A DNA stretch of 64,000 nucleotides. Source: Lytechinus pictus. Its lineage: Eukaryota. This document shows positions 1,090 through 63,143 of this stretch, piece by piece. The stretch is from NCBI RefSeq assembly GCF_037042905.1, contig NC_087250.1, positions 8,000,001-8,064,000 of the forward strand, read 5' to 3'. The first letter of the stretch is position 1. The number at the start of each line of letters is the position of its first letter. The notes below the pieces were generated by a model. It made no database searches, was not told where the DNA came from, and was given only the letters and a program-made list of their open reading frames with translations. Made by a program: the position numbers and the translations under genes.

Positions 1090-1679
1090 TATTTGTATAC
1101 TGTATTACTCAGGTGTATTTGAAGCCCTTACCAAAGAAACCATGTCTGAGCTATACAAGTTTGAAACAGTTCACTTGCCCTCAGCTAATCCTTGGGCATA
1201 TTAGAACTTTTCCAATGGTACACGGTGCATATAATTCTTACTAATGCCCTTAATGGTGTGTTTTATTTGTATACTATCTTGCCCAGGTGTATTTGAAGCC
1301 CTAACCAAAGAAACCATGTCTGAGCTATACAAGTTTGAAACAGTTCACTTGCCCTCAGCTAATCCTTGGGCATATTAGAACTTTTCCAATGGTACACGGT
1401 GCATATAATTCTTACTAATGCCCTTAATGGTGTGTTTTATTTGTATACTATCTTGCCCAGGTGTATTTGAAGCCCTAACCAAGGAAACCATGTCTGAGCT
1501 ATACAAGTTTGAAACAGTTCACTTGCCCTCAGCTAATCCTTGGGCATATTAGAACTTTTCCAATGGTACACGGTGCATATAATTCTTACTAATGCCCTTA
1601 ATGGTGTGTTTTATATTTATACTATCTTGCCCAGGTGTATTTGAAGCCCTAACCAAGGAAACCATGTCAGAGCTATACA
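1090..1679 (+). repeat. 174-bp tandem repeat (about 3.3 units) spanning the acceptor and first ~45 nt of a TBC1D9 exon
   Basis: AG|GTGTATTTGAAGCC recurs with the AG at 1111, 1285, 1459 and 1633. Confidence 0.95.
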
Positions 1680-1746
1680 TGAAGATGGAAGAACTAGGAA
1701 TGCTGAGTATGATCTCTCTATCTTGGTTCCTTACAGTCTTTCTAAG
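1635..1746 (+). CDS. TBC1D9: TBC1D9-like exon (TBC domain; GVFEALTKETMSELYMKMEELGMLSMISLSWFLTVFLS)
   Basis: ccag|GTGTA acceptor, CTAAG|gtaagt donor; phase 1 to 2. Confidence 0.9.
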
Positions 1747-4700
1747 GTAAGTTTGTTCAAATTTATTTTCCATTTCAGTTAAAGGGGAAAAAAATTGTTT
1801 TTCCTGCTTTGTTCGACTACAGTCAAATACAGCAGACTGCCAAGTTCTATTCACAATACAACCAGAGTGCATTAAGTCTTTTGTTCACACACATACACAA
1901 TAGTGATGTGTGCATCTCATTGACTGTGTACTCACAAAGCTTTTTTTTTACAATAAACCAATCAAAAGCTGTTGTAAGCTGAATTAGCATAATCCATATG
2001 TGGCACAGTAGTGATTCTGTCCATGGCGGGCAAAGAGTTAACATTGAGAACAATGGATCAACTGCAATTGTGGTTCATGTATGTATATTACACTGATCAG
2101 ACCCAAAGAAAAGGTTAGCAATCAATTGTTAATTTGAAAGAACAATTCTGATTCGTTCCTCGTCGGTCTACTGAGCAAAATGCGTATGCAACAAAGATCT
2201 TGATAGGCCATTTCGTGATAGCGAATAAGCACTAACCTTTGTGTTACGGAGCCCTGTCTAGATTTGGGGACTATGTTTGAAAGATTTGGTCAAATAAATA
2301 ATAATGTTAAATCAATGATGATAATGATGATGATGATGATAATAATAATGTAAATGATAGTAATCATAAAAATAATTATAATAATTGTGATGATGATAAT
2401 GATGATGATGAAAGTAATAATACATTTTAATGATAATGATGATTATAACAGTAATTATAATAATGATGGCAATGATGATGAAAATAATAATATATTATGA
2501 TAACTATAATGATAATAATTATAACATGATTATAATGATGATGATGATAATAATCTCTATATTTCTCTTCAGCGTGATGCCGTTTGAGAGCGCAGTCAGC
2601 ATCATGGACTGCTTCTTCTACGACGGATCAAAGGTCATCTTCCAGATCGCCCTCGCTGTCCTCGACGCTAACTATGAAGCGCTCCTGGAGTGCGATGACG
2701 ACGGCCAAGCCATGGTCGTTCTAAGCCGCTATCTGGAGAACGTCGGCAATCGGGATGCCACCATGCCGCACGTCCCTCACTCATCTGTTATCGTGGGAAG
2801 CGAAGGAAAAGACTCACCACAGGTATTTAGCATTTATCTCATGTTTATACATGTACATGTACCTCTGTCCACTTTAATAGGCATAGCCATTTTTATTGTC
2901 TCGCCCACCAGAGGTGAAGGCGAGACTTAGGGATCCAAATGTCGTCCGTTGTCCGTACGTCACATACCTCCACATAACTCCACATAACTCCACAACCGTA
3001 AGTCACTTTTCAACCAAACAAAATCATCATCATTATCAACATCACCATCATCATTATTATTATCATCAACATCATCATCATCATCTTAGTCGTCGTTATC
3101 ATCATCATCATCACCATCATCATTATCAACATCACCATCATCATTATCGACATCACCATCATCATTATTATTATCATCAACATCATTGTCATCATCATCA
3201 TCATCTTCGTCGTTGTCGCCATCATCATCATCATTTTCATCGTCACCATTATAATATCATATTTCAATCTTCGATTTCAGGTTTCTGTGGAAGTATCGGA
3301 GCTGATCTACAATTCCTACTCCAAGTTTGGTTCCATCTCCAATGAGAAGATAGAGAAGATGCGTTTGAACGAGAGATTGCGGGTCGTCCAGGGATTGGAA
3401 GACACCGCTCGGAGGAGTGTGATCAGGAGTCTTGTCTCGGACACGGCTTTTGGAAAGAAAGAACTGGAGGAACTTTATGTCCTCTTCAAGGTGAGATAAG
3501 GAAAAGAATAAGAAGATGATGATGTAGGTGATTATGTGATGGGGTCGAGGAGGATGATGATGGAGGTGAGGATGATGATGGAGGTGATGATGATGGTGAT
3601 GATGATGCAGGTGATGTTGATGATGTTGATGTTGATGATGGAGGTGATGATGATGATGATGATGGAGGTGATTATGATGGTGATGATGATGCAGGTGATG
3701 ATGATGATGGTGATGATGGTGATGATGATGATGGTGATGATAATGATGATGGTGATGATGATGGTGATGATGATGTTGGTGATGATGATGGTGATGATAA
3801 TGATGGTGATGATGATGATGATGATGATAATGGAGGTGATGATGATGATGGTGATGATGATGGTGATGGAGGTGATGATGATGATGGTGATGATGATGAT
3901 GATTGTAATGATGATGATGATGGTGATGATGATGGAGGTGATGATGATGATTATGATGATGTTGATAATGATGATGATGGTTGTGGTGGTGGTGGGGTAT
4001 ATGATTAAGATTGACGATGATAATGATTACAATGGTGATAGCGATTGTGATTGTGATGACGATATTGGTAGTGATGATGATGGCAATGAAGATGATGATG
4101 ATGATAGAGTCGTGGAGGTGATAATGATGATGATGAGTGATGAGTATAATGGTGATGATGATGGTTACGATGATGATGATGACGGTGATGATATTGATGA
4201 TGACTACGATTAGGGTAATTGATGATGATATATTGGTAATTACAATTGGTATTAACTTTTATTTCTCATGTTTTCTTCTGTGTCACTTACATGTACATTA
4301 CATTTTCATGTAATGCTACTACCATCAAACATGTTTTAAAAAACTTTTTCCAGGAGGAGTTCCTGACCGGCAACCTACTATCCAACACACCCATCATGGA
4401 CCACGCCCAACACTTCCTGTCTGTCGTCAAGCTAGACTTAGAGAAATACCAGACCCTCTTCCTTGCTCTGTCTCCCTGGGCTACTGGTTCCCATGCGGAC
4501 AAGCTTGGTGTTAGATCCTTTAGGGTAAGTGAGACCAAGGCCAGACTCTATTCCTTGCTCTGTCCCTCTTGGCTTCTAGTTCCCATGCAGACATGCATGG
4601 TGTTCAATCATTTAGGGTAGGTTAGACCAAGACCAGACTCTCTTACTTGCTCTCTCCTGGGCTACTGGTTCTCACGCAGACAAGCTTGGTGTTAGATCCT

Positions 4701-7700
4701 TTAGGGTAAGTTAGACCAAGACCGGCCTCTCTTCCTTGCTCTGTCCTCCTGGGCTACTGGTTCTCACTCAGGCAAGCTTGGAGTTAGGTCCTTTAGGGTA
4801 AGTTAGACCTAGACCAGACTCTATTCCTTGCTCTGTCACCCTGGGCTACTGGTTCTCATACAGACAAGCTTGGTGTTAGATCCTGTAGGGTAAGTTAGAC
4901 CAAGGAAATACCATACTCTTTTCCTTGCTCTGTTGCTTTGGGCCACTTGTTCTCACACAGACAAGCTTGGTGTTAGATCCTTTAGGGTAAGACCAAGACC
5001 AGACTCTCTTACTTGCTCTGTCCTCCTGGGCTACTGATTCTCACACAGGCAAGCTTGGAGTTAGATCCTTTAGGGTAAGTTAGACCAAGACCGGACTCTC
5101 TTGCTTGCTCTGTCACCCTGGGCTACTAGTTCTCGTACAGACAAGCTTGGTGTTAGATCCTTTAGGGTAAGTTAGACCAAGAGAAATACCAGACTCTCTT
5201 CGTGCTCTGTTACCCTGGGTCATTGTGGGATGGTGTTTGTCAGAACCATGGAAGACCACCATGACTGTGCCAGTCAAGCTGCATATGGGCAATCCACCAT
5301 ATTTTATTGTATATAATTATGCTTTTAATACAAAATAAATACTACAAAGAGAAACACTTAAAATAAGGAAAGTCAGGAAATGTTGAAAATGTTTAAGTGT
5401 GTGACCCCTAATTTTTGTGGGCTTCTTTCTTGAAAGCCTGGTGTAATATATTTCTCAAGGGAATAGATGGTTTGGTAACTTTGTTGGAATTTTTTGAAGT
5501 TTGAGTCTTTTGCATTTAATGCTGATATCGAGATGGATCGATCGAGAGCAAGTAATTTGTTCAGTTTTTGGATTGAAAAATTGTATATAATATTAATTGT
5601 CTATACTGATATGATTATAATATTCTAGGATATACTGTACTTTGTATAACACTGCATTATATGTGGAAACCATCAGCCAGTCCCGATATGTTTTACACCA
5701 TTTAAAGATGATCATGATATTTTGATGCTTCAAAGTGGATGTCTTTCATGTCTTTATCATCGTACTATACCACAATCTTACACTTTGCAATGGAACTTTT
5801 TGAATAGGTGTTGGACTCTGATCACGACTGCCTTATCAACTTCAGGGACTTTGCCTGGGGTATGGGGACCATGTGTCGAGGTGAGATGCCCCAGAGACTC
5901 AGGCTGTTATACGAGATGCACTTACCCCCTGCCTTAACACCTGCAGATCTAGAGAGCCCCAGTGAGACTCATACAGGTAAGAAAGGGAGGTAAATAAGAT
6001 GACGTAAGAGCACCTTGGCGCTTGTTTTTTAAATGATAACAAAATGATAATAGGTTTGATGTATAATGAGACAAATCCACTCTGTACACTGCTCTGTAGA
6101 GACTGTTTTATTTATTTTTATGTGCACTTCACAATCAGAGTTTGTCTTAGTGTTCCTGCCAAATGTCATTTATTAAAACCTTATCAAACTTTGTATACAT
6201 GTATATAATACCACAAAAAAAAATTCACAGAAATAGGAACACATGGTTTAAAATAATAATTTTCTTTTCCCTAAAATAGGAAATATTCTATTTAAAAGGA
6301 CCACGTGGTCGGTATGAGATAGTATGTAATAAGAATGCTACGACCACAAAGGTACTATACGCAAACTTTAATATATATTTTTTTTAATGCATCTACATGT
6401 ATACATACAATGTGGATAGAAAGAATTAGCAAACAAATATTCATATACATATACAGTAACTTCAATAATGCTTTGAAATAGTATTTAGTAAGAAGCATTT
6501 AGTAGGAATACTACAGCTACTGTACCAAGATTATATACATGTATATAAAGTTTGATAAGGTTTTAATAGATGACAATTAGCAAAGCATTATTGAAGTTAG
6601 TGTGTATGTATATTTGTTAGAAAATTTCTCATTAATTTGTTCCCATTTCTTGGCTGTAAGGGTTGGTGGGTATGCTATTTCAAAAACTTCTTCAACCTTT
6701 CTGTTGGCTCAGTTGGTAGAGCGTCCGTCTCACAACTGGGAGGTCGGGAGTTCAAGCCCCCGGGCCGCGTCAGACCACAGACGTTAAAAGATGAGACTTG
6801 CTACTACCCTGTTTGGTGTTCAACGATTCAAGGGATAGAGCTATGTTGTATCTGGGGCTGCACAGTGGTTGCCGGGCCCATGGTCAATTGGGCAGTAATA
6901 ATTTTCTATTTCAGATTTCATTTCGAACAATGCAATATGGATTTTTTTTAAGTTTGTGTATATTATCAAGGTAGTCCTAACATATTTCCTATCTTCTTTA
7001 AAAAAAAACACGTCAGAATGTAGCACAGTGGACGTCCCTTCACCTGACGACTGTGATGTTGATGTAGAGGGCGCTGTTGATGCGGAGGAAGCCGTTGATG
7101 CAGCAGAATTCTTCGGACCAGACACAATACCTGCCACAGCGACCTCTATTACTGCAACCCCTACCACAGCTACATCTACTACCATTCCTACATCAGTAAC
7201 AGCCAAACCTCAGGTAGGAAGGTCCAAGTTCTCTGCTTGGACGATACTCTTGGCTGGTAGTCTGAGATTAATTGTATATTTATTTATTTATTATTTATTC
7301 TGCACTTCAAACATATTCAAGATTACAAAGCAATATCAAACATTACATAAAATGACATAAAAATTATACAGGTATGTGCAATATTTGATAGCAGTTATAT
7401 CAGATAAAGTGAAATTTCTTATCTCTGTTAAAATCAGTGTGATAAAATACCTTTAAAATTGTTTTGATTCGGTATTCTGAGAACCAATTTGTCTTCAGAT
7501 GATGGTGGTATGAACATTCGCTGAAGTGGTATACGGTACACCATGTGTAAAGTTCTGGAAAGGACTGAGATAAAAGTGGATAGAGATATAGGTGAAATGG
7601 AAAGGCGAGAAAGTGGTGGTTTGGAAGTAGAGTATCTTTCGGAAATGAGTGTAGTCTTAAAGAGGACTGTAAACCAGAAAGAGTGAAAAGCTTGAGCAGT

Positions 7701-10700
7701 AGGCAGGATGAGAGTCTTGAGTCGAAGGCTGGTTGGGTTGGAGGGGTAAAATAGGCTTGAGTAGATGAGAGAAGGCTGGCTTGAGTCAGCGAATGGAGCT
7801 GTGGAGCAGGAGCAAGGACTTGATTTTTCGAGCAGGTCGACTGTCTGTCATCATTCTGTCTTTATTTTATGAGACATACCAAGTCTTACACCTTAAGGCC
7901 ACTGCACACCTTACAATGGCTCTGTGACCCGATTTTTGAATAAATCCTAGTAGAATTTGATGCTAATATTGAAACATCGAATATCTTACTACATGTATGT
8001 AATGTTCTAAATCATTGTATGAATACTTACACTGTATGTTTAAATTTGTTACTATACCATCATACTTGTTAGTATAAAAGCGAATTTAACATCTATTCAT
8101 AATGACTTCATAGCAATCGCACGATTGGCTACGATTTGAAACTAATTTGGTCTTTACTCCAAAATAAAGGCTTGCAATCATCCAAAATGGTTATATTTGT
8201 ATTCTTTAGGTTAACTTGAACCTCAAATAAAAAGATACTTTTCATTCATATTTGCAGAAAATAAATATAACTGCGATTTGTTCCAAAATCGGATTTTGGA
8301 CCAGTCGTAAGGTGTTTGGTGACCTTTAGGCATGAGACTCCTGCTTTACGGGCTCTTGCTGATCCCTCAAATCTCTTTCTCATGCAAGAATCACAGCCTA
8401 TCCCATACACAATGCCTGGTGCTCTCACGCATAGCCATAGTTCCTTGCCTCAAATCTCATACATCGCTCCTCTTTGAACTTTTGGATCCATACGATTTTG
8501 CCCGTTGCCGGCGCGCATCGAGACCGCAAGCACCACAAGTAAAAACGTGACAATCAACAGACAAGGCCACATCTCTGTTTTATCTCTGTGTAAAGGCATG
8601 GCTATTTATGAAGCAATGTCCAATTAGAAAGGCTGTATATTAGCGCTCTCTTCTCGTTCAACCAACGGAAATCCTTTCTGCCATGAGGTGTGGCAAATGA
8701 GCGAGAGTGTCAATTTTATAACACCCAAATGCACTATAAACTAGCATGTCTTTACAGGGATTTCTTCTTATTGTCATCACTATCATTATTTGTAAACAAA
8801 TTTTTGGCATTACTCCTATGTCTGACTAATGATTTTAATCACAGATCGAGCATGCGATCTTGAACACATAGGAGTTATGCTGAAAATTTGTTTACAAATT
8901 ATAATTTCCTCCTATTAAAGCCTCTTTACTTACTATCATCATTATCATCTTACAGGATTCTCCGCAACGCTCTAGCCTTGGTTCCAGTCCTCTATCACCA
9001 TCAGTGACTTCACCCAACAAGCGTTGCAACCCATTCCTGACGAACCCCGATCCGACGCTACCTCCGCCTGATCAGAGCACGGTCTTTGATTTCCCAGGGG
9101 AGGATAGCCTTCCAGCCAGCAGAGATCAGGATCATAAAAAACGTGAGTATCATAATTAATCTGTTTCAACACAGTTTAATAATCATTTGGGATTAGAGCC
9201 TACCCCCCCCCCCACAACTGTCCTTGAGAACTCCCAAACAAAAAACAAACAGATTTCTTGCATGAACAAGCATAATTACCATGATGTAAAGACAATATCG
9301 TTTTATAGAAAAATAATGCTTCAGTATTGGATATTCCATCAGAGGCAATGTGCATGCCAATTGGATTGGCATCACGATGGTCTTGCAATGAGCGGGGGGG
9401 GGGGGGTGAATCAGACCCCCTCCCTCCCCGACTGTTCAGGTGTCAAAATACATGTAACCCAGTCTTTCAGGAAAGATTTACTGAATGATGTTATAAAGTC
9501 TAATGATCATGATCATCATTTTGTTTCATTTGCTATTAAGTTTATTGGTTAAAAAATGTTTGTTTATCACTTGTATTTTTTTTGTTCATTTGTAAAAAAA
9601 ATTTTATCATCTTTGATTGTAATCCTAAATGTTTGTGGATTCAAGTATATTTTATTGATTCCATAAACATAAAGGATTACAATCAAAGAAAATTAAAAAT
9701 TTGTTAATTTTTTTAATTTTCTTTGATTATAATCACTTATGTTTATGGAATCAATAAAATAAACTTGAAGCTCGTATTTGTTACTTTCTCCCTTTTTCTT
9801 CACTTTTTTTTCTTTTTCAAAGAGCGCATAGGAAAGCATGTGGCATAAAGCACATTGGACTTTTCCAAAAAATGATATTCCTTTTTTTCTTACCAACAGC
9901 TACAGAACCTGCACAAGGTTATCAATATTACCTCAAGAAATGGCAGCTAGAGAAAGAAGAGGAGGAAAGAAGAAAGAGCTTCAAACATCTACCTCGTATG
10001 AACCAGGTAAAGGACAGCGCATACACACTAGCATTGGGCGATATTTCAATATTATAAAAAATATGTGATAATGAAAAAAAAAATTGAATATTTGATAATG
10101 GTTTTACGATTACGTTGATATATCATGGTAACATGATATGACCAAATATTGTTGATTATGAAAAGTTAGTCACAATTTTTTTTTACCAGTTTCTGCTCTC
10201 TTTGTGTCTCTTTCCTTCTCTCTCTTTCTCTCCGTCTCTTACTATATCTCCAGGAGCAATTCATCCAGCTACTGAAGAGCCTCTACGACATGTTCGTCGA
10301 TCATCCCGAGGAGCAGGAACTCTACCGTTCCCTTGCCACCGTCGGAACGCTTCTCTTTGAGCTCGGTGAGGTCGGCAAGAAATTCTACAAGAGATCTCAG
10401 TCCTCTCCTGCAAGAACATGGAGTGAGCCCTCAACGTCAAGCGCCTCACTCGGCGAGGAGCTCCATGGGAAATTCGTAGAGGATTGCGTGGGTCTGGCTG
10501 CAGTAGGTGGGGAAGTGCAGGGTGGAGACAGCATTGAAAAGCCTGGGGAGGAGTCTACTGGAGGCGAAACTGTTGAAGAGAAGAAGGAGGCCGACAGCGG
10601 GGATAGTCTTGTGGACAGGAGTTTGGTACGAGGTGGGGAGGGAGATAACACTATTGCGGATGCCTTGAAGGCTGTATCCATCGAAGAGCCTGGTGACGAG

Positions 10701-11039
10701 TCTAGTACTGTTGATCTCAGTGCTGACCAATGTGGCTCAGAACCTGCCAAAGTGACTGGTAAAGAGTCCAGCACCAGTACGCCTAGCCATGCATCAACGT
10801 CTGATAACACTGCAACGGCACCGCCCAGGCCGAACAATCTACCAACAGAACTCCCTAAGCTGGTAGATAATGAGTGGGCGATTACATTCGAACAGTTCCT
10901 TGCGTCGATGTTGAACGAGTCTCCCCTCGTGAAATTCTTTGAGAAACCCGTGGAAATCTCTGGACTCGTTGAGGGTTTTCGACAAAGAAAAGTTTTCCAA
11001 AGACAACTGAGTGATGTTAGCTTTGGCTCTTCACCATAA
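1635..11039 (+). CDS. TBC1D9: TBC1 domain family member 9/8-like Rab GTPase-activating protein, 3' part (9 coding exons; 5' exons lie upstream of the window)
   Basis: Joined exons 1635-1746, 2573-2822, 3281-3490, 4354-4524, 5808-5976, 7017-7213, 8956-9142, 9900-10006, 10254-11039 are all AG/GT bounded with matching phases. Motifs ISLSWFLTVFLSVMPFESAV..DCFFYDGSKVIFQIALAVL, EF-hand LDSDHDCLINFRDF, LPRMNQEQFIQL and WAITFEQFLASML match recalled TBC1D9/TBC1D8 sequence. Confidence 0.93.
2295..2555. repeat. (ATG/ATA)n degenerate trinucleotide microsatellite
   Basis: gatgatgat/aataat runs. Confidence 0.9.
2573..2822 (+). CDS. TBC1D9: TBC1D9-like exon (VMPFESAVSIMDCFFYDGSKVIFQ...DSPQ)
   Basis: ttcag|C acceptor, CAG|gtattt donor; end of TBC domain. 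Confidence 0.92.
3022..3260. repeat. (CAT)n microsatellite
   Basis: catcatcat runs. Confidence 0.92.
3281..3490 (+). CDS. TBC1D9: TBC1D9-like exon (VSVEVSELIYNSYSKFG...ELEELYVLFK)
   Basis: tttcag|GTT, AAG|gtgaga; 210 nt, phase 0/0. Confidence 0.92.
3512..4230. repeat. (GAT)n microsatellite, about 700 bp
   Basis: gatgatgatg runs; source of the poly-Met ORF. Confidence 0.95.
4354..4524 (+). CDS. TBC1D9: TBC1D9-like exon (EEFLTG...LSPWATGSHADKLGVRSFR)
   Basis: ttccag|GAG, AGG|gtaagt; 171 nt. Confidence 0.9.
4445..5220 (+). repeat. 88-97 bp tandem repeat (about 8 units) made of TBC1D9 exon 3' end + splice donor
   Basis: AGG|gta(a/g)g donors at 4525, 4617, 4706, 4798, 4890, 4987, 5075 and 5167. 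Confidence 0.95.
5808..5976 (+). CDS. TBC1D9: TBC1D9-like exon with EF-hand (VLDSDHDCLINFRDF...LRLLYEMHLPP)
   Basis: aatag|GTG, ACAG|gtaaga. Confidence 0.92.
6703..6930 (+). mobile_element. tRNA-derived SINE
   Basis: A box tggctcagttgg and B box gttcaagcc followed by a non-tRNA body. Confidence 0.75.
7017..7213 (+). CDS. TBC1D9: TBC1D9-like exon (acidic then Thr-rich linker; EEAVDAAEFF)
   Basis: gtcag|AA completes GAA from the phase-1 upstream exon; CAG|gtagga. Confidence 0.8.
7897..8324. mobile_element. PIF/Harbinger-type MITE; a related terminus lies at ~165-190
   Basis: ggccactgcacaccttac ... gtaaggtgtttggtgacc imperfect TIRs, TAA/TTT flanks. Confidence 0.65.
8956..9142 (+). CDS. TBC1D9: TBC1D9-like exon (Ser/Pro-rich linker DSPQRSSLGSSPLSPSVTSPNKRCNPFL...), absent from the ORF track
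   Basis: ttacag|GAT, open for 62 codons, AAAC|gtgagt; its phase 0 to 1 shift is required to join the flanking exons. Confidence 0.8.
9900..10006 (+). CDS. TBC1D9: TBC1D9-like exon (PTEPAQGYQYYLKKW...LPRMNQ)
   Basis: aacag|CT, CAG|gtaaag. Confidence 0.88.
10254..11039 (+). CDS. TBC1D9: TBC1D9-like terminal coding exon (EQFIQLLKSLYDMF...WAITFEQFLASML...stop)
   Basis: Long pyrimidine tract + cag|GAG; TAA at 11037-11039. Confidence 0.93.
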   Translation, partial: EQFIQLLKSLYDMFVDHPEEQELYRSLATVGTLLFELGEVGKKFYKRSQSSPARTWSEPSTSSASLGEELHGKFVEDCVGLAAVGGEVQGGDSIEKPGEESTGGETVEEKKEADSGDSLVDRSLVRGGEGDNTIADALKAVSIEEPGDESSTVDLSADQCGSEPAKVTGKESSTSTPSHASTSDNTATAPPRPNNLPTELPKLVDNEWAITFEQFLASMLNESPLVKFFEKPVEISGLVEGFRQRKVFQRQLSDVSFGSSP

Positions 11040-11480
11040 GACTTGCTTGCTCATGATATGAATTGGAAATCTATTTGAAATGCCTACCACACCGCCTGAT
11101 GAAAAGCCAACCTGCAACTCTGTACAAGTCAACTTTCTTGATGTCGAATAATCGCCCCAGTCAAAGCAAGTTTTTAGACCAGGGTCAGTCTCACGAAGAA
11201 TTGTGATTGATCTAATCAACCTCAACTATGTAAAAATCCATCATTGTTATAATTATTCCTACAGGAAATTTGCACAATGTCCTTTTTGTGTAAATAAAGA
11301 GGAGCACGCCGAATGGGCAGTGATGAATGTATGAAGGTTAATCATAATTATCGGAAAACACTTTGAACAAATATGCATTTTAGAGATTGTTGTCGACCCT
11401 TTTACTGTATCACTTTGACTATAATGCAACTTTCCTTTGTATTCTATCTCCCTTTAGAGTCTGCATTTCAAACTTACTGA

Positions 11481-11805: not shown

Positions 11806-11880
11806 TATTGACATTGATAACATTGACCAAAGAAGATTATTAGTAGGTCAGGACATTTCATTTTCAAGAAAGAATAATTG

Positions 11881-20751: not shown

Positions 20752-21016
20752 GGCCCCGTCTTACAAAGAGTTACGATTGATCCAATAAACCTGAAGTATA
20801 TGGAAATCCATCAATGTCATAATTTTCTCAGAAAATTTGCACAATGTCCTTTTGTAAACAAAGATAATCACTGAATTTTCAAGAAAAATATAGATTTATG
20901 AATGGGCATCATATCTAGAAAATATGTTGCACAAACATGCTTTTGAGATGACATTGCTGGCTTTCCATAGTTGTAGTTGATTGGATCAATCGCAATTCTT
21001 TGTAAGACGGGGCCCT
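20752..21016. mobile_element. MITE, ggccccgtcttacaaagagtt family
   Basis: TIRs of about 30 bp; other copies at 24106-24348, 36445-36716 and 53422-53684. Confidence 0.85.
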
Positions 21017-22312: not shown

Positions 22313-22373
22313 TTATCTTGCTGTTTCTTCCTCTGTCAGGCTCTGCCCAAAGATGGATTTGAAAAGTTCCATC
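22313..22373 (-). CDS. AATF: AATF terminal coding exon (MELFKSIFGQSLTEEETAR*)
   Basis: ctcag|G after a pyrimidine tract; EL..S.FG motif; TAA at 22315-22313. Confidence 0.88.
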
Positions 22374-45668: not shown

Positions 45669-45755
45669 ACGAAATAGAAACTATAGGCAAGTATGCATTT
45701 TAAGACAATGCATGACTACTTTATCTCGGTTGATTCAATACAATTTCTAGCAGTA

Positions 45756-50876: not shown

Positions 50877-51034
50877 CAGGGGCCACGGAAAGGTTTTCAA
50901 AGTGGGGGCGGGGGGCTGACCATGCAAAAAATCACAATCCTATGGTCATTTCCACGTTTTTGTGCACGGTTTTGGAAAAAAGTGGGGGGGGGGGCTGAAT
51001 CCCCCCTAGCCCCCCCCCCCTTCTGCGGCCCCTG
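50877..51034. mobile_element. Short MITE with caggggcc TIRs and poly-G/poly-C tracts
   Basis: tgtaa|caggggcc ... ggcccctg|tgtaa. Confidence 0.75.
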
Positions 51035-52806: not shown

Positions 52807-53210
52807 TTGTGGAATTTTAAGATACTTTTACTGGTGTTTAAAGCATTGAATGGCCCAGTCCGTAGTTATCTTTCAGAATTGCTTTCCTTGAAACTGCCAT
52901 CAACCTCACACAACCTGCAAAGTGATAAGGATAGATTCCTGTTGAAAATACCATACTCTAAGACCGAAGCAACTCTTGGAGACTATGCAGCTCAGAAACT
53001 GTGGAACCAACATCCCCTTAGAATTAGAATGGCCCAATTCATACCTGCTTTCAAAACATTATTGAATACACATCGGTGCAGTAGAGTGTTTAAGTAGATC
53101 ATCATCTTTTTTTAGTAAGTACATGTAGTATGAGCGATAGGAGTAACCAAAGCGCAGTAGAGTATATCTATATAGTGCCTGCGCTATACAAATTTATAAT
53201 ATTACTATTT
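52807..53210 (+). mobile_element. L2/CR1-group LINE 3' fragment
   Basis: FKILLLVFKALNG....YLSELL...A.KLWN..P..IR......FK..L.TH C-terminal motif; gcgctatacaaat tail. A shorter fragment lies at ~60020-60135. Confidence 0.8.
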
Positions 53211-53711
53211 ACGACGGAGCAATTGTAGCCCAACATTTAGAACCTTGCCAATAATACATTGACTTCAATGGGGCTAATTACGTACTCATGAGGGCATATC
53301 TCAAACCCCCATGGACCGATTCCCACCAAATTTGCATAGTAGAAGTATTTCATCATGTTCTTTTGAAATATGGTATCAAAAATGCTGAAATGCAAAACAA
53401 GTTTTTTATGTCATCATTCCTGAGCCCTGTCTTACAAAGAGTTACGATTGATCCAATCAATCGTAACTCTATGGAAGTCCATCAGTGTCATAATTTTTTC
53501 TGCAGGAAATCTGCAAAACGTCCTCTGTAAACGAAGGAGAACACACCGAATTGTCAAGAAATCAATGAATTAATGGATATATCTAGAAATTTTGTTAAAC
53601 AAGCATGCATTTTATATGTTGACGTTGCTGGCCGTCCATAGTGGCGATTGATCAGATCAATCGTAACTCTCTGCAAGACGGGGCAGTACTCTATTGTGAC
53701 AAGGTGGATAC

Positions 53712-53927
53712 CTAGTAACCTCTCTTGCTGTCTATCTTATCAAACCTTTCCTGAAGCGACTGCATCTGCTGCTTCAGTTCCTGCATGCTGCTCATGGTCT
53801 CCAGTTGTTCTATCTTCGAGTCTATCGCATTCTCGGACAGCATTATCAGTTTGTTCCTCATGTCGCTGATGTTTACGGCCATGTCTTCGATCTTCATCTC
53901 CGTTGTTTTTGTGAACTGCACGCTTCC
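53712..53927 (-). CDS. TRPA-like last coding exon (coiled coil ...ELKQQMQSLQERFDKIDSKRGY*)
   Basis: ttctag|GGA; heptad-like composition; TAG at 53714-53712. Confidence 0.75.
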   Translation of the reverse strand, partial: GSVQFTKTTEMKIEDMAVNISDMRNKLIMLSENAIDSKIEQLETMSSMQELKQQMQSLQERFDKIDSKRGY

Positions 53928-56900
53928 CTAGAAATTGCAACGTATATTAATAGAAGCCATTATCATTACAATCAATGATATGATAATGGTATGTGTAATA
54001 TGGTATATCGCTACTGTAAGAGTTTGTGCATGGTCGGATAAACGAGACACGATGTTAGATTCGCCTTAGAAATGTCATCTTTCTGAGATCACTTATGAGT
54101 AGCTGTAAGAACCCAAATGACATATCAGCCTGATTCCTAACATTTAGAACCAGGCCAATAATACACTGACTTTAATGGGGCTAATTATGTATTCATGAGG
54201 TCATATCTTGGGGCCCCATGGACCGATTCCCGCCAAATTGGGTTGTGGAGGGTTTTCATCATGCTCTACCAAAATACATGTATGGCATCATAAACGTTGA
54301 TATTAAAAAATGTGAAAATTGATGACATCACACTTCGGTACTCTATGGTATGTGTAACGGTAAATTGTCACTTGGTCTACTACGTAGTGGTATGTGTAAT
54401 GGTAAAATGTCACTTGGTCTACTACGTAGTGGTATGTGTAATGGTAAATTGTCACTTGGTCTACTATGTAATGGTATGTGTAATGGTAAATTGTCACTTG
54501 GTCTACTATGTAATGGTATGTGTAATGGTAAAATGTCACTTGGTCTACTACGTAGTGGTATGTGTAATGGTAAAATGTCACTTGGTCTACTACGTAGTGG
54601 TATGTGTAATGGTAAATTGTCACTTGGTCTACTACGTAATGGTATGTGTAATGGTAAAATGTCACTTGGTCTACTACGTAGTGGTATGTTTAATGGCAAA
54701 TTGTCACTTGGTCTACTACGTAGTGGTACATGTATGTGTAATGGAAAATTGTCACTTGGTCTACTATGTAGTGGTATGTGTAATGGTAAATTGTCACTTG
54801 GTCTACTACATGTACGCAGTGGTATGTGTAATGGTAAATTGTCACGTGGTGTACTACGTAGTGGTATGTGTAATGGTAAATTGTCACTTGGTCTACTACG
54901 TAGTGGTATGTGTAATGGTAAAATGTCACTTGGTCTACTACGTAGTGGTATGTGTAATGGTAAATGGTCACTTGGTCTACTACGTAGTGGTATGTGTAAT
55001 GGTAAATTGTCACTTGGTCTACTACGTAGTGGTATGTGTAATGGTAAATTGTCACTTGGTCTACTACATGTACGTAGTGGTATGTGTAATGGTAAATTGT
55101 CACTTGGTCTACTACGTAGTGGTATGTGTAATGGTAAATTGTCACGTGGTCTACTACGTAGTGGTATGTGTAATGGTAAATTGTCACGTGGTCTACTACG
55201 TAGTGGTATGTGTAATGGTAAATTGTCACTTGGTCTACTACGTAGTGGTATGTGTAATGGTAAATTGTCACTTGGTCTACTACGTAGTGGAATGTGTAAT
55301 GGTAAATTGTCACTTGGTCTACTACATGTACGTAGTGGAATGTGTAATGGTAAATTGTCACTTGGTCTACTACGTAGTGGTATGTGTAATGGTAAATTGT
55401 CACGTGGTCTACTACGTAGTGGTATGTGTAATGGTAAATTGTCACGTGGTCTACTACGTAGTGGTATGTGTAATGGTAAATTGTCACTTGGTCTACTACG
55501 TAGTGGTATGTGTAATGGTAAATTGTCACTTGGTCTACTACGTAGTGGTATGTGTAATGGTAAATTGTCACTTGGTCTACTACGTAGTGGTATGTGTAAT
55601 GGTAAATTGTCACTTGGTCTACTACGTAGTGGTATGTGTAATGGTAAAATGTCACGTGATCTTCTACGTAGTGGTATGTGTAATGGTAAATTGTCACGTG
55701 GTCTACTACGTAGTGGTATGTGTAATGGTAAATTGTCACTTGGTCTACTACCTAGTGGTATGTGTAATGGTAAATTGTCACGTGATCTTCTACGTAGTGG
55801 TATGTGTAATGGTTAATTGTCACGTGATCTTCTACGTAGTGGTATGTGTAATGGTAAATTGTCACGTGGTCTACTACGTAGTGGTATGTGTAATGGTAAA
55901 TTGTCACTTGGTCTACTACCTTGTGGTATGTGTAATGGTAAATTGTCACTTGGTCTACTACGTAATGGTATGTGTAATGGTAAATTGTTACTTGGTCTAC
56001 TACGTAGTGGTATGTGTAATGGTAAATTGTCACTTGGTCTACTACGTAGTGGTATGTGTCACTACTACGTAATGGTAAATTGTCACTTGGTCTACTATGT
56101 AGTGGTATGTGTAATGGTAAATTGTCACTTGGTCTACTACGTAGTGGTATGTGTCACTACTACGTAATGGTGAATTGTCATTTGGTCCACACCCACTTTG
56201 TCTACTTTCCGTTTGTACATGTATACTTCCCCTTAATGGCAAAACATGTATGTCATATAATAATGGTATGCACACTGGTAAATTGTCACTTGGTCTACTA
56301 TGGTAATGGTATGTGTAATGGTAAATTGCCAGCTGGTCTAAACCCATTCTGTCTACTGTTCTTTTGGTGTAATTGCACATGTTCTTATCCTAGTTCATCT
56401 ACAACCAGTACGTCTACTAACCATCTAGTCTAATTGTCATTTAGCCCATTTGCCCTTTTGTCTAATTTTAAGTTACATATAGGATATTACCATTTTCACT
56501 ATTAGCCATTTGGTCTAACACCATTTACATTTAGCATATATAATTAGATCAAATTTTCAATTGAAAAAGTTACCTATAACAGTAACTTTTATGCAACGGG
56601 GCCCAGGCAGTGGATGGCATAAGAAAAAAAAATTGCTTTACCGTTTTCTCCAGTTCTTCCAGAAAGGCGACGAGCTGATCGTGAATCTCTTTGTAACCAA
56701 TGGCTTTGTAGTAGAGCTTGTGCATGGGTGAGATCTCGGTTCGGATGCTTTTGACCTGGTCTCGTAGGACACTGTGCTTCCAAAGCAAGATCACGGAGTT
56801 GTCCTGCACATCCAGGATGCCTTTGGCCTAGGGTGGGATGATATTATGATGGGCAGAGGTATTCAAATATGGTTCTATACATGTGGTCCTATGAAAATTG

Positions 56901-59900
56901 CTCCTAAAGAATATCCACACATTAAGCCAAACAATCCCTTACTTCAAACCTTACCTTAACTTGAAGGCCGTCACATCGTTCCTTGCAAGCCTTGCAGCTG
57001 GTTGCCCGCTACTCACCCACAAAAAAGTTTTGAGCATGTTCAAAACTTTTCCGCATGCAAATTAGACTTGCGTGTGCTTCTGTGAGATACGTGCGAGATA
57101 CTGTTAATGCAGGTGACCTGCTGGTAGCAAAAATAGTTACACACAAGGCTTTCACGGTGACAGGGCCTTTATTTTAATCCTAATCATGATTCTAAACCCA
57201 ATCCCTGTGAAAAAAATTTTGACAAAAAATACTAACCGACACCATAAATCTTTAGACAAATTAGCAGAGGAGCAAATGCTGTCCTAACATACATATACAT
57301 ACATGCATTTCATTTGATTAATATAATTAAAAAAAAAATTAGTTTGTGAAAAACCTACTTAGTGACACCCTTTACTGTGTCGACACTACCCCTGTTAAAC
57401 AGAGTCAGTCTTCTTTGCTCCATAGTTAAGAAGTGAAATTGCTGATTGTTGGTAGACTACTGTGCTGATCAGACCTTTCGCATCCGGGATCCAAAGGGGA
57501 ATGAACTTTACAACAAAAAATGGGGCCTTGACACAAGACTAGCACAAATACAACTTAAAATGAGATGATCTTTCTGTGCATAAGTCCCAGTCAGAGACTT
57601 TAAACTGAATATTCAGACCACTCTTCTTGAGTGAAGGTTTGCACAGAAAACTAGCCCACCCCCATTTTGAAGTTTGTCTGCAAAAGGCCAGTTAAAAATA
57701 GGGTTACTGGTTCGATGTAAAGAGGAGAAAAACCTAATTCAGATGAAAGAAAAATATTCTTACCTCCAGTGTACGTTTGTACATTTTGGCCTTCTTCTGA
57801 ATAATCTCAATGTCGTACACAGCTAAACCAGTCTGTAACAGAAAGAAAACACTATAAAGATGAAATAATTCCACTTTCAAACACTTCAATTTAAAAGAAG
57901 GAGTATATGACCACATACCTTAAACCAACAAAAATTATATAATTGATCTTCAAAAGCAAAAATTAGAAAGTGGGCTCATCTGAAAGTGTAACTGTTAATC
58001 TCGCTCTTCATACTGTGAAAATTTGAACATAGTTGAATAAAAGACAAGAAACAAGAGTTTCTTTGACACCATTATGTGGACTGCTTGGAAGATTGCAGAG
58101 CGTACATCAAATGTTTGAGTGAACGCCCAGCTTTGAACTTTTAAAAAAGTTTTTCCTTGTTATTTGAAGCTCTCACTGAATTTCTTGCTCATTCAATCAA
58201 GTACCGTACCCAAATATACAGGGCCCACATCAATATTAAGTCAAGAGTTAGACTCCTTACCAGCAGGTTCGTGATGAGTATCGGCATGAAGATAATGAAC
58301 AAGAAGAAGATGATGTGCGTAGAGGCTGGGTAGAAGACCATGTTTGTAAAGTCGATGGAAGCCACGGGCTGGTAGAGGTAGTCCAGGGAATGAAAGACCG
58401 TGTCAAAGTTGAGCTCTCCCGTGGCCATACCCAATATCTTAGCTATGGAGTTCCCCATTGTGTGGAAAGGATCCTGGCAAAGGAATCATTGAAAATATAT
58501 ATACAATTAAGTAAATAATGATAATATCAATATACGTTTACATAGAGCTTAAAGGCTAAAGAAAATTGCAGCGAACAATTATTTCATAGGAAAGCTTTCA
58601 AAATTGAGGCTTATTACTATCATAGATCTAGATCTGGTACATTGAAATGGACTTTGTGAAATCATGAAATCTTAGCTGAAAACCGATAATTGTGTTGATC
58701 GCTAACACAGAAAAGCACATGTGGGACAGTGTATTAATATTGCTTGAAAAAATACGAATCCTGGACCTTGTGGTTCAAAGTCCAGAAACTTATCCCCTGA
58801 GCCACAACACCCCTACGTTAAAATCCATTCAGCCTCCGCAGAGCTATAAATTAACAACCTGGCTTTCAAAAGGGTATTGAGATTTCCAAGTACATCAATC
58901 GTGGAATGTCGAATGTGAAAGCCTCTGTAGCATGCCGAGCAATCAAGCCTTGGAACTCTTGATGGAATGCTCCCCAGGGAGTGGAGAATGTGCATACATT
59001 CAACAAGTCTGGTGTTGGCGTTGGAAGCACAATTTGGATTGGTTTCCCTAGCTCCAAAACCTATTCTGAGTTAGTTAAACTGAGCCAGATTGCATTATTG
59101 ATACCTCAACAACTAGTGAGTAACTTTTCAGGACCATCTTCATTTTGTGTTTGGTGTTATACTCGTGTAAAAATTGACCTAACACCAACACCAAAAGGTC
59201 ATGTCCGGGGTAATAATAATTGCAATGTAAAGCGTTTAGAAACAAAGTGTAATAAGCACTATATAAATGTAACTGTTATTATTATTCACCAATTTCCATT
59301 CATGTTGGCAGGAGGAAGGACGTTAGCTCCTGCCGACATTATTCATTTTTTCGTAGCACATGCTTGAGGTAAATCCATTAAGCTACATGTAGCTGTACAA
59401 TAATTGAAAATCCAAGCGCATGTGCAACCTACTAAACTTCTGCAAGCCAGAAAAGATTTTTCATAAATTTTTACCTGGTTCAAGAATCTTGGAGAACCAA
59501 TCTCGACTAGCACTAACTTTTGGTTTTCCTTTTAACAACAATCCCCCCTTTTTGTGTACTGTTAATAAGAGAATTTTCTTCAATAGCTTACCAATATTGA
59601 CATTTGTTAATTTAAATTTCATGGCAACTTCTTTGTTTCCATTGTTTAAGAAATCAACCAAATTATACATAATGTTCAATGTACAATACATACATGTACA
59701 GATGATATGATCGGGAATTATTGATTCGTTGATTAAATTTTGTATACAATGTACTTTGTTAATAATGTTGGAATATGCTCGGTATTTGTGTTTGTATTTT
59801 GACAATGTCATGAATTATGTGTAAATTTGTATTATGTAGTTGTTGTTGTCGTTGATAAATTCACATTCAATAAATTTTTACCTGGTTCAAGAGAAGAATG

Positions 59901-62900
59901 CAGAAAACAACAGCAAAGGCCAGGATGAAAATACCAACCACAAAGATGAAGTTCAGAAGAGTTGATAGCACCTCTGTTTAGGGGGAGATTAAACAAAAAA
60001 TCATATATAAAGGAGCAATCATCTATGCAGGGCCCTCGCTATGGAATTCCCTCCCACGAGAGATCCGTATTAGCAAGTGTGTCGAAGCATTTAAGATCAA
60101 GCTAAAAACTCACCTCTCTAACTCATTTTATCAATGAAGATTCTCTGTTATTTGTTATTTTGTTAGCTTCTCCTTCACTTGTGTGCCTTGAGCATCTCTA
60201 CTCACTCCAGCACTTTCCAAAAGGGGGGGGGGGGGACACATTTTTCAGACGAAAATTTGAAGGTCATTTCGTCCATGTAAAATTTAGAAAAAAAGGTGTA
60301 TGAACGACATAGTCCCATTGATATGTGACTTTCAAAATGGGGGGCGGGGCACACTTGTGTAAGAACGGCATATTTACATTACAAATTTTGATTATGGCTC
60401 TCAAAAGGGGGGAGGGGGGAAGGGTGGGGGCACAGGTCGGATATGCCCCCCTGGATCTGCCACTGCACTAAGGTGTAACACCGATCAGTAATTTGAAAAG
60501 AAAGACGTCTTACCGAGGAACATGAATATGTATAGACCAAAGAATGGGACGGTCTGCAGGAAAAGGATAAAGTTGAACCAGGTCAGAAACACTGCGAATG
60601 CACCCAGCTGCCATTGCCAATCCTGCAAAAAAAGGGAAAGAAATAAAGAAATTAAGGTTCTTCAAGTTCTTCAAGCTACACTGACTGCCTCCTTCAATCC
60701 TAAAGATTCTTGCAGTATTGTACCAGGGACCGGCAGGTGCAATACACCGGGTGAACACCCTACTCTCTGACGAATAGTGTATTGGTTTTAACATGCATAG
60801 GTTGTGACTCTCCTATACACGCGACCAACATTTGCGTCCTTTCGGATGGATGGAGTGTTTTCCAACTGCATTCTCACCCGCACTAAACACAGCGGTGAGG
60901 CACGTAAACACACAATGCTAGCATCAGTTTTTTTGTTAGACGTCTTCCAGCATGCTGCGGGACTCGAACCCACGCACGTCTACGATCTTATCCGGAAAAG
61001 GCGCTCTAACCGACTGAGCTACGCTGCCTCCCTAAGGTGATATACATGAATTGTGAAACAGCAAATTTGGCTAATAACAGGGTTCCCGGCTTTTCAAGAA
61101 AACAAACTTCCCTGATATTTCCCTGATTTTTTCGCTGATGAAGTTTAAAAATTCCCTGATAATTATTTAAACCCATTAGCAGTTTCGCATGTTTTCTAAG
61201 TTGTTACAGGAAATTACTTTTTTTTAGTATAAAAACAATCATGTAAAACTAATTAGTACCACCATAACCAGTCATTCAATGGATGTTGCTTTGATATGCA
61301 ACAAAATATAATAGAGTCTGACTGACTACCGTGCTTTCAACTTTTGGGCTGATCAAAATTCCCTGATTTTTCCCTCATTTGAGGCACTTTTCCCTGGTTT
61401 GAGGTATTTTTCATCAAATTCTTGGTTTATACTTTTTCCTTGATTTCCCTGATAGGCTGGGAATCCTGTAATAAGCAAGTAGCTCACAAGAAACTTTTCT
61501 CTCGAACTTTCCCATCTTGAATAAGGATAAGCACTACACTTTTAAAATGAAATTTTTACATGAAGATTCATCTTGGTTTGGTGCCCGATCAAAATAGAAT
61601 ATCTGCATGGTTTTTATTTTCCTTTTGATATAAAAGTTACTGAATTGTTGCCTGTGGTTTCTGATATCCAATTGCTGAATTTGTAAAATAATAGCTCATA
61701 AAGTCCTCTTTCAAAGAAATGAGCGGGTACCATGTACAAAACATTCCAAATTTTTAATTATACCATTCGGAAAAAAAAAATTAATGGCCACTCTACATTT
61801 GTAAGACTTTAAAGTTAGATTTACGTTCTTGAACCTTTACCAATAGCAGGCTTTAAGAAAGAAGTTCTTACCAGTTTATAAACTTGATCCCATAGTCATA
61901 TGTCTTAAGAATGATGTAAAGACCGGTTAAAACTTGACCCTACAGCCATGTTTTAAGAATGAGGTACTGACATGTTTGAAATTTACCCCATAGCCATAGG
62001 TCTTAGGAATGAAGTTTTGACCATATTAAATTTCACTCCATAGCCAGATGTCTAATAATAAACAAGTACTGACCAGTTTGAACTTGACCCCATGGCCATA
62101 TGTCTTAATAAACAAGTACTGACCGGTTTGAACTTGACCCCATGGCCATATGTCTAATAATAAACAAGTACTGACCGGATTGAACTTGACCCCATGGCCA
62201 TATGTCTAATAATAAACAAGTACTGACCGGTTTGAACTTGACCCCATGGCCATATGTCTTCATAAACAACTACTGACCAGTTTGAACTTGACCCCATGGC
62301 CATATGTCTTAATAAACAAGTACTGACCGGTTTGAACTCGACCCCATGGCCATTTGTCTTCATAAACAAGGACTGACCGGTTTGAACTTGACCCCATGGC
62401 CATATGTCTTAATTAACAAGTACTGACCGGTTTGAACTTGACCCCATGGCCATATGTCTTTCATAAACAAGTACTGACCAGTTTGAACTTGACCCCATGG
62501 CCATATGTCTAATAATAAACAAGGACTGACCAGTTTGAACTTGACCCCATGGCCATATGTCTTTCATAAACAAGTACTGACCAGTTTGAACTTGACCCCA
62601 TGGCCATATGTCTTATAATAAACAAGTACTGACCGGTTAAAACTTGACCCCATGGCCATATGTCTAATAATAAACAAGTACTGACCGGTTTGAACATGAC
62701 CCCGTGGCCATATGTCTTATAATAAACAAGTACTGACCGGTATGAACTTGACCCCATGGCCATATGTCTTCATAATCTACTGACCGGTTTGAACTTGACC
62801 CCATGGCCATTATCTTAATAAACAACTACTGACTGGTTTGAACTTGACCCCATAGCCAGATGTGTAGTAATAAACAAGTACTGACTGGTTTGAACTTGAC

Positions 62901-63143
62901 CCCATGGCCATATGCCTTAATATACAAGTACGGACCAGTTTGAACTTGACTCCATGGCCATATGTTTAATAATAAACAAGTACTGACCGGTTTGAACTTG
63001 ACCCCATGGCCATATGTCCATTCACCAAGGCCCGGTATGATGAAGAGGATGATGAAAATAAGAAGGGCCATCTCTCGAACAATGCTGGCTAATCCGCGGA
63101 TGGAGTTCAACGACGAGTGTCTGTAGATCCACACACGGTAAGC
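53712..63143 (-). CDS. TRPA-family (TRPA1-like) cation channel, 3' part: S3-S6, pore, TRP-like helix, C-terminal coiled coil (7 exons; 5' exons beyond the window end)
   Basis: Exons 63143-62988, 60622-60514, 59973-59882, 58473-58261, 57832-57764, 56827-56642, 53927-53712 join in phase. WQWQLGAFAVFLTWFNFILFL, NQDPF..., GELNF and MPILITNLLTGLAVYDI..IQKKA match the recalled TRPA1 S4-S6 pattern (QWQCGAIAV..W.NFLLYL; NLLIGLAVGDI). Confidence 0.88.
54345..56330. repeat. 42-bp minisatellite, more than 40 units, in a TRPA-like intron
   Basis: Unit ggtatgtgtaatggtaaattgtcacttggtctactacgtagt. Confidence 0.97.
56642..56827 (-). CDS. TRPA-like C-terminal exon (AKGILDVQDN...LEELEKT)
   Basis: ctag|GCC, ACG|gtaaag; 186 nt open, phase 0/0. 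Confidence 0.75.
57764..57832 (-). CDS. TRPA-like exon (TGLAVYDIEIIQKKAKMYKRTLE)
   Basis: acag|ACT, GAG|gtaaga. Confidence 0.9.
58261..58473 (-). CDS. TRPA-like exon (pore helix, filter GELNF, S6)
   Basis: ccag|GAT, CTG|gtaagg. Confidence 0.92.
59882..59973 (-). CDS. TRPA-like exon (S5; EVLSTLLNFIFVVGIFILAFAVVFCILLLNQ)
   Basis: acag|AG, CAG|gtaaaa. Confidence 0.9.
60514..60622 (-). CDS. TRPA-like exon (S4; DWQWQLGAFAVFLTWFNFILFLQTVPFFGLYIFMFL)
   Basis: ttgcag|GAT, TCG|gtaaga; reading frame differs from the ORF-track call. Confidence 0.9.
60760..61032 (-). mobile_element. tRNA-derived SINE-like element
   Basis: On the minus strand gtagctcagtcggttagagcg ... ggttcgagtccc; no proper anticodon or acceptor stem. 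Confidence 0.65.
61870..63018 (-). repeat. About 50-bp minisatellite (about 20 units) made of TRPA-like exon 3' end + donor
   Basis: Unit ataaacaagtactgaccggtttgaacttgaccccatggccatatgtct; degenerates toward 61870. Confidence 0.95.
62988..63143 (-). CDS. TRPA-like exon (S3 region; ...REMALLIFIILFIIPGLGEWTYGHGVKFKP)
   Basis: atag|GCT; the phase-0 donor CCG|gtcagt lies in the first unit of the minisatellite; hydrophobic helix. Confidence 0.7.

What the first reader, a model, noticed from the sequence alone, without database searches (positions are those of the whole stretch)
1090..63018. Tandem arrays of duplicated splice junctions recur in all three genes
Seen: at least five independent duplications copy an exon edge together with its splice site. 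They are the TBC1D9 acceptor (4 copies, 1090-1679), TBC1D9 donor (8 copies, 4445-5220), AATF donor (3 copies, 33690-34830), TRPA-like donor (2 copies, ~59464-59484 vs ~59871-59892) and TRPA-like donor (~20 copies, 61870-63018). Each array extends only into the intron and the functional site is the exon-proximal copy. Inference: this is either a mutational process seeded at exon edges or a survivorship filter, and it leaves banks of decoy splice sites that could tune productive versus NMD-bound splicing.
Basis: partly seen in the sequence, partly recalled or inferred. Interest (0 to 1): 0.72.

Follow-up and report, generated by a model that had tools for sequence, protein, structure and literature searches.

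The report
Sea-urchin splice-junction "mirage" repeats
In three neighbouring sea-urchin genes, short stretches spanning an exon edge and its splice signal have been copied into the adjoining intron; this repeat type is already known from lancelets and a few human genes, and the copies look tolerated, not regulatory.

Summary
The window is from a Lytechinus sea urchin. Four of the five sites are tandem arrays spanning a splice junction, with 4, 8, 3 and 23 sites. The fifth is a lone 23-nt copy, not an array. I found up to four more exon-derived copies in AATF.

The exon-proximal site is the working one. At the TBC donor, 20 junction reads use it, no decoy joint is listed and RNA depth over the array is 0. 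Homologues confirm the TRPA1 joints. 35 of 36 decoys would cause a premature stop.

'Extends only into the intron' follows from tandem geometry. Enrichment at junctions is unsettled: P=0.005–0.02 by one test, 0.24 by another, in a window chosen after the fact. A related organism's contigs show about 1.4 units where the window has 8.4.

This is the 'mirage' minisatellite of amphioxus and human F7 intron 7. Best reading: local duplication, then array expansion, kept silent by proximal-site choice. Regulatory decoy use is unsupported, on a weak test. This scan reported the same thing repeatedly in this genome.

The parts
1089..1679 (+). TBC-domain gene acceptor array: 174-bp unit (about 128 nt intron end plus 46 nt exon start); decoy acceptors before 1113, 1287 and 1461; working acceptor before 1635
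   Evidence: TRF 97% matches; alignment; each decoy adds a stop 89 nt in; Pfam RabGAP-TBC runs on from exon 1635-1746 into the next exon
521..650 (+). Older, more diverged copy of the intronic part of the same 174-bp unit, separated from the array by about 430 bp of other sequence
   Evidence: self-BLAST cluster 521-1679; alignment
4448..5226 (+). TBC-domain gene donor array: 92-bp unit (77 nt exon end plus 15 nt intron); working donor after 4524, 7 decoy donors (5 with the same 9-mer), then a donor-less part-unit
   Evidence: 20 RNA junction reads 4524 to 5808 and RNA depth 0 over 4576-5289; organism B contig joins 4539 to 5188
33701..34829 (-). AATF exon 35031-34810 donor array: 377-bp unit (about 20 nt exon plus about 355 nt intron); working donor after 34810, weaker decoys after 34451 and 34076; imperfect microhomology of about 13 nt between the unit start and the sequence after the last unit
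   Evidence: (scores 5.6 vs 9.6; stop 5 nt in)
31984..32250 (-).
   Evidence: 93% over 118 nt; alignment; the insert matches 50886-50978 at 90%
24069..24360 (-).
22430..22600 (-). Tentative: three decayed copies of the AATF last-exon acceptor region with only about 4 exonic bases
   Evidence: alignment, mean column identity 60%; flagged as a local duplication
26885..27571 (-). 76-bp minisatellite whose unit holds about 40 nt resembling the inside of the neighbouring AATF exon 27690-27607; no splice site in the unit
   Evidence: score 35, highest of 500 shuffles 28
59463..59485 (-). Lone 23-nt exact copy (11 exon plus 12 intron) of the TRPA1-like donor at 59882, 407 nt into the intron; not a tandem array
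61829..63018 (-). TRPA1-like donor array: ~52-bp unit (about 31 nt exon end plus 21 nt intron); working donor after 62988, 22 decoys (10 with the same 9-mer); only the decoy at 62886 would give a stop-free in-frame insert (34 residues)
   Evidence: homologues from two Lytechinus species and Strongylocentrotus join at this donor without an insert
1635..11039 (+). 3' nine exons of a TBC-domain RabGAP gene (TBC1D9-like; paralogue name recalled, not tested)
   Evidence: open frame; Pfam; RNA joints 4524-5808 and 5976-7017
22313..37013 (-). AATF/Che-1 gene, 12 modelled exons; the first coding exon was not located
   Evidence: open frame; Pfam AATF-Che1 and TRAUB
53712..63143 (-). 3' seven exons of a TRPA1-like channel gene
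   Evidence: open frame; homologues

Best explanation
These are 'mirage'-type repeats: DNA-level local duplications that happen to straddle an exon-intron edge and are tolerated. Step 1 (inferred): a short local copy arises by microhomology-mediated template switching or templated insertion. Step 2 (inferred): the pair of direct repeats drives unequal exchange or slippage and grows into a minisatellite. Step 3 (shown for one donor, inferred for the rest): the spliceosome keeps using the site next to the exon body, so all extra units leave with the intron. Step 4 (computed; the decay itself is not tested): the rare mis-splice almost always carries a premature stop and would go to nonsense-mediated decay. 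Step 5 (inferred): the founder unit is anchored in a constrained exon and cannot be deleted, so such arrays last longer and stay recognisable, which can give a modest excess at junctions with no special targeting.
For: Units contain both intron and exon sequence, with breakpoints 11 nt or more from the junction, so they are not copies of spliced RNA. Imperfect microhomology lies at the AATF unit joint. Lone short copies and long arrays coexist, and a contig from related organism B joins 4539 to 5188, i.e. about 1.4 units against 8.4 here. 20 junction reads use the first TBC donor, none is listed from 7 decoys, and RNA depth is 0 over 4576-5289 in 3 of 3 runs. 5 of 6 homologous TRPA1 proteins join at the proximal donors; the sixth model skips that region. 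35 of 36 decoys give a premature stop (one coordinate corrected). 7 of 8 differences shared by half or more of the copies are synonymous, as expected if the proximal copy is the constrained one. The commonest TRPA1 decoy change is CpG decay at -2/-1. 4 of 8 long-period arrays in the window carry no junction. Published mirages and F7 pseudo-sites are reported silent (PMC3087553, PMC3902484, PMC1557585).
Against: Core GT/AG is intact in 36 of 36 derived copies; a column-invariance estimate on four arrays gives 0.006-0.02, though the copies were located by windows centred on the junction and the finding was picked for intact sites. Minor variants in the copied exon parts lean synonymous: 19 of 51 vs 13.4 expected, P=0.054. 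TRF arrays overlap junctions about 3-5 times more than random placement. The RNA test is weak (upper bound 14%, one study, no NMD block, array not shown in those animals), and no acceptor array was tested with RNA. In human 6-16 and CBS the two nearest pseudo-sites ARE used (PMC1557585 Introduction).
Confidence: 0.7

Rival explanations
1. A mutational process is seeded at splice junctions: breaks or stalls near exon edges (for example where the spliceosome assembles on nascent RNA) are repaired by local templated copying, so new duplications form preferentially across junctions.
For: 4 of 7 long-period arrays within genes hold a junction vs 1.36 expected, P=0.02. 8 of 28 exons have an exon-derived copy within 1.5 kb after one simple-repeat hit is dropped from 9. 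The lone 23-nt copy is centred on its junction. The TBC acceptor was copied at more than one time.
Against: The junction-centred test is not significant: 6 of 50 vs 85 of 1015, P=0.24, although its background includes dispersed-repeat pairs. Breakpoints lie at very different distances from the junction. The window was chosen because it shows the pattern. Anchoring in an exon predicts an excess without targeting.
Confidence: 0.13
2. The copies are kept partly intact by indirect selection as spare parts: when an array contracts by unequal exchange any copy can become the first one, so alleles whose copies have lost GT/AG or coding sense yield null genes and are removed. No regulation is involved.
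For: 36 of 36 cores intact. Minor variants lean synonymous, P=0.054. The 1.4-unit state in organism B could be a contraction product.
Against: Both signals are borderline and open to ascertainment. The pooled P=4e-4 mostly vanished once changes on the functional lineage were set apart. Homogenisation from the constrained copy gives the same pattern with no selection on decoys.
Confidence: 0.08
3. The arrays are regulatory decoy banks whose copy number tunes productive versus NMD-bound splicing.
For: Many decoys score as high as the real site. 35 of 36 would trigger a premature stop. Nearest pseudo-sites are used in human 6-16 and CBS.
Against: No decoy joint listed against 20 canonical reads; depth 0 over the array. 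A related organism appears to lack the decoys at the same donor. AATF decoys are weakened. Published lancelet mirages give no aberrant mRNA.
Confidence: 0.06
4. The arrays are assembly artefacts.
For: The inner TBC acceptor units are nearly identical. No long read or contig spanning an array was seen, and organism B contigs lack the TBC donor array.
Against: Units of the other arrays match at only 83-86% and carry their own substitutions and indels, which mis-assembly does not create. Organism B differs from the window by 3-7% in exon pieces, so it is not the same genome.
Confidence: 0.03

Closest known systems
Amphioxus 'mirages' (Adh3, globins BflGb6 and BflGb9, troponin C, PGBD5). Passages read in PMC3087553 and PMC3902484; the Adh3 and TnC papers were not read, only cited there.
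   Same: Minisatellite-like tandem duplications across an exon-intron edge; both donor and acceptor sides; units of tens to ~160 bp; most copies keep AG/GT; copy number differs between haplotypes or assemblies; normal mRNA is made.
   Different: Host is an echinoderm. One unit is longer (377 bp). Lone short copies and a near-whole exon copy sit beside full arrays. Somatic instability and within-species length polymorphism were not tested here.
Human F7 intron 7 37-bp VNTR, and 6-16, CBS intron 13, lamin B2 and PDGF intron 4. Abstract, Introduction and Discussion of PMC1557585 read.
   Same: The first unit spans the donor; downstream pseudo-donors are identical in sequence; only the most upstream is used in F7, lamin B2 and PDGF.
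   Different: Human cases listed there are donor-side and one per gene; here there are 2-3 per gene plus an acceptor array. In 6-16 and CBS nearby pseudo-sites are used; not seen here. That the decoys can work when the first site is lost was shown for F7 and is untested here.
Intron gain by tandem duplication of AG/GT-containing segments (Rogers model, as cited in PMC3087553; human internal tandem repeats, passages of PMC2812944)
   Same: The same kind of intragenic duplication; the TBC acceptor junction reads AG|GT.
   Different: No new intron has formed: all extra units lie inside pre-existing introns, and the TRPA1 exon joints are shared with Strongylocentrotus.

Membership tests
Mirage / junction-spanning minisatellite | Head-to-tail repeats whose unit spans an exon-intron boundary | tested here: met
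The 23-nt TRPA1 copy is not tandem.
Mirage / junction-spanning minisatellite | Copies reiterate the splice signal | tested here: met
   36 of 36 derived copies at six events keep GT or AG.
Mirage / junction-spanning minisatellite | Normal mRNA is made from the exon-proximal site | tested here: met
   TBC donor: 20 reads. TRPA1 donors: homologue continuity. TBC acceptor and AATF donor: reading frame only.
Mirage / junction-spanning minisatellite | Copy-number instability | tested here: inconclusive
   About 1.4 units in contigs of related organism B vs 8.4 in the window. Contigs cannot prove absence, and no second individual of the same species was read at DNA level.
Mirage / junction-spanning minisatellite | Somatic length mosaicism (Adh3) | not testable with these tools
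   Needs single-molecule reads from one animal.
Regulated unproductive splicing (AS-NMD) | Measurable, regulated use of the stop-bearing form | tested here: inconclusive
   No decoy joint listed vs 20 canonical reads; upper bound about 14%; no NMD block.
Regulated unproductive splicing (AS-NMD) | Conservation of the alternative site across species | tested here: inconclusive
   Organism B contigs show one donor at the TBC site; the other sites were not tested.
Intron gain by tandem duplication | A new intron bounded by duplicated AG/GT | tested here: not met
   All copies lie within existing introns.
Recursive splicing (ratchet points) | Acceptor that regenerates a strong donor, with intermediate reads | not tested

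The most novel reading that the evidence does not exclude
In sea urchins, exon edges are true hotspots of a two-step mutational process: a short templated copy centred on the junction, then expansion to a minisatellite. Because any copy can become the working site after contraction, selection keeps the decoy splice signals and coding sense intact. Intron growth, exon-end turnover and a standing pool of alternative splice sites would then be linked genome-wide.
Probability: 0.15. Interest if true: 0.65.

Novelty: new member of a known kind. Interest (0 to 1): 0.27.

Why it matters
As it stands it is a further, dense example of a described repeat type in another phylum. My seven literature searches listed no echinoderm report, but the library lacks most subscription papers. 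Its practical value is as a natural test of splice-site choice, with identical sites at graded distances on both donor and acceptor sides, and as a warning for gene prediction. It would matter more if a genome-wide, age-stratified test showed that new duplications form preferentially at junctions.

Tried and rejected
No whole genome is held, so the genome-wide test could not be run.

Strict ungapped test: 5 of 53 junctions had a local copy against 315 of 1183 intron positions. That background is inflated by the arrays themselves, so it was replaced by collapsed tests. In one search, 3 of 53 junctions were dropped as low-complexity.

A pooled synonymous excess (30 of 64 vs 17, P=4e-4) was rejected as evidence of selection on decoys, because changes on the functional lineage inflate it; polarised P=0.054. 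One of 7 TBC donor copies (3-nt gap) and the last TRPA1 copy were left out of those ungapped counts.

The sequence just beyond the last AATF unit is not a fourth donor; I read it as breakpoint microhomology. The TRPA1 23-nt pair is not a decayed 407-bp tandem. The 42-bp, 151-bp and 160-bp arrays hold no modelled junction. Copying from spliced RNA was rejected because the units include intron.

No RNA holder was listed as on record in the run search; this is not used as evidence. Only one stretch could be laid with reads, so the acceptor, AATF and TRPA1 arrays have no RNA test. PMC10078293 (passages) did not describe junction-spanning units in the passages shown. No supplements were read; those of PMC3087553 and PMC3902484 hold the repeat alignments and could refine the comparison.
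Full report
WHAT THE WINDOW IS. The window holds three spliced genes. I modelled 28 exons with 53 canonical junctions by coordinate, and all three models translate without internal stops. Pfam gives RabGAP-TBC for the first (below cut-off), AATF-Che1 and TRAUB for the second, and a weak Ion_trans hit for the third. A search with one channel exon returned 6 proteins, named TRPA1 homologues of Lytechinus pictus, L. variegatus and Strongylocentrotus. The window is closest to L. pictus. The name TBC1D9, rather than a paralogue, is recalled. No whole genome is held.

THE OBSERVATION. Tandem Repeats Finder reports arrays of 174 bp x 3.4 (1089-1679), 92 bp x 8 (4448-5182), 377 bp x 3 (33731-34829) and 52 bp x 22.5 (61881-63018). 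Each unit spans a junction, giving 4 acceptors, 8 donors, 3 donors and 23 donors. The fifth site is an exact 23-nt copy 407 nt into the intron (E=5.5e-4). It is a lone copy, since nothing else around it is duplicated.

AATF also has a near-whole copy of exon 32561-32418 with its donor and no acceptor, and a decayed copy of the exon 23668 acceptor split by a dispersed repeat. Less certain are decayed copies of its last acceptor and a 76-bp array resembling the inside of exon 27690-27607 (score 35, best of 500 shuffles 28). An older copy of the TBC acceptor unit lies at 521-650.

WHICH SITE WORKS. I laid three RNA runs (one study, about 6% of each run read) on 4270-7300. The joint 4524 to 5808 had 4, 10 and 6 reads; the control joint 5976 to 7017 had 8, 7 and 6. 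No joint from any of the 7 decoys was listed, and depth over 4576-5289 was 0 in 3 of 3 runs. Limits: listing needs 3 reads, and one joint row was not shown. Neighbouring unique intron bins were also near 0, so these animals are not shown to carry the array. NMD was not blocked. Zero of 20 bounds decoy use only below about 14%. For TRPA1, 5 of 6 homologues join at the proximal donors with no insert; the sixth model skips the region. For the TBC acceptor and the AATF donor the evidence is the reading frame alone. Of 36 decoys, 35 would bring a premature stop; only the TRPA1 copy at 62886 gives a stop-free 34-residue insert. Five of 7 TBC and 10 of 22 TRPA1 decoys have the same donor 9-mer as the real site, so position, not strength, must decide.

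IS IT ENRICHED? With arrays collapsed to one unit, 4 of 8 TRF arrays of period 40 or more hold a junction against 0.85 expected (P=0.005). Within gene spans it is 4 of 7 against 1.36 (P=0.02). A junction-centred alignment test gave 6 of 50 scorable junctions against 85 of 1015 intron positions (P=0.24); that background includes dispersed-repeat pairs. The window was chosen for showing the pattern, so these P values flatter it. That arrays 'extend only into the intron' is a consequence of tandem geometry once the frame-keeping site is used (inference).

HOW THEY ARISE. Units contain intron and exon with variable breakpoints, so the copying was at DNA level. The AATF unit joint shows imperfect microhomology of about 13 nt. 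In contigs of a related organism (3-7% different in exon pieces) one record joins 4539 to 5188 and 4576-5085 has no depth: one donor plus the part-unit, about 1.4 units against 8.4 here. Contigs can collapse repeats and cannot prove absence, and 1.4 units could be either seed or remnant. I infer two steps: a short local copy, then expansion by unequal exchange or slippage. Anchoring of the founder in a constrained exon should prolong survival and detectability (inference).

SELECTION ON THE DECOYS? All 36 derived copies keep GT or AG. A column-invariance estimate on four arrays gives 0.006-0.02, but copies were found by junction-centred windows and the finding was picked for intact sites. Differences from the working exon looked strongly synonymous (30 of 64 vs 17). 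After splitting, 7 of 8 widely shared differences are synonymous, as expected of the constrained copy, and minor variants are 19 of 51 vs 13.4 (P=0.054). These are hints against strict neutrality, not proof. Homogenisation from the constrained copy, or indirect selection on contraction products, could explain them without regulation.

WHAT IS KNOWN. Tandem repeats spanning exon-intron edges are named 'mirages' in amphioxus Adh3, globins, troponin C and PGBD5. They occur at both 5' and 3' edges, vary in copy number and are reported not to disturb splicing (passages of PMC3087553, and PMC3902484). In human F7 intron 7 only the most upstream of 5-9 identical donors is used, although the others work if it is lost. 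Lamin B2 and PDGF behave alike, while 6-16 and CBS also use two nearby pseudo-sites (abstract, Introduction and Discussion of PMC1557585). PMC2812944 (passages) links boundary repeats to new introns; none formed here. My searches listed no echinoderm report. Earlier notes of this scan describe the same thing at five other places in this genome and in other invertebrates; I did not check them, and my reading predates them.

VERDICT. Real, correctly located, and a new member of a known kind. Best explanation: tolerated junction-spanning duplications silenced by proximal-site choice (0.70). Rivals: junction-seeded mutation (0.13), spare-part selection (0.08), regulatory decoys (0.06), artefact (0.03). 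Interest 0.27.

Noticed in passing
P0001, residues ~217-265; corresponds to the exon starting at window 56827 (-): An annotated L. pictus TRPA1-like protein repeats the first 23 residues of this exon in tandem. This may be a further acceptor-side duplication in another allele, paralogue or assembly, read into the gene model. The window shows no such copy.
   Followed up: partly
window 54346-56154: 42-bp x 42 minisatellite (92% matches) filling most of the last TRPA1-like intron; no junction in the unit.
   Followed up: partly
window 2297-2554, 3023-3260, 3553-4203: Long degenerate AAT/ATC/GAT tracts that run up close to the TBC exon edges; the 650-bp GAT tract fills most of one intron.
   Followed up: no
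window 6700-6930: Highly repeated tRNA-like dispersed element in a TBC intron; it draws hundreds of RNA reads with a strand bias and very high contig depth. It looks like a SINE.
   Followed up: no
window 24108-24346, 36448-36714, 53424-53683, 20753-21012, 11188-11307: A ~240-270-bp element with terminal inverted repeats (MITE-like), at least five copies in the window; one sits exactly in the decayed AATF acceptor copy.
   Followed up: partly
window 38641-40488: Two related ~400-bp segments flank a GC-rich stretch with short open frames upstream of AATF; possibly a decayed DNA transposon. The first AATF coding exon was not located.
   Followed up: no
window 49334-49956 and 63528-64000: 160-bp and 151-bp tandem arrays with no modelled junction.
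   Followed up: partly
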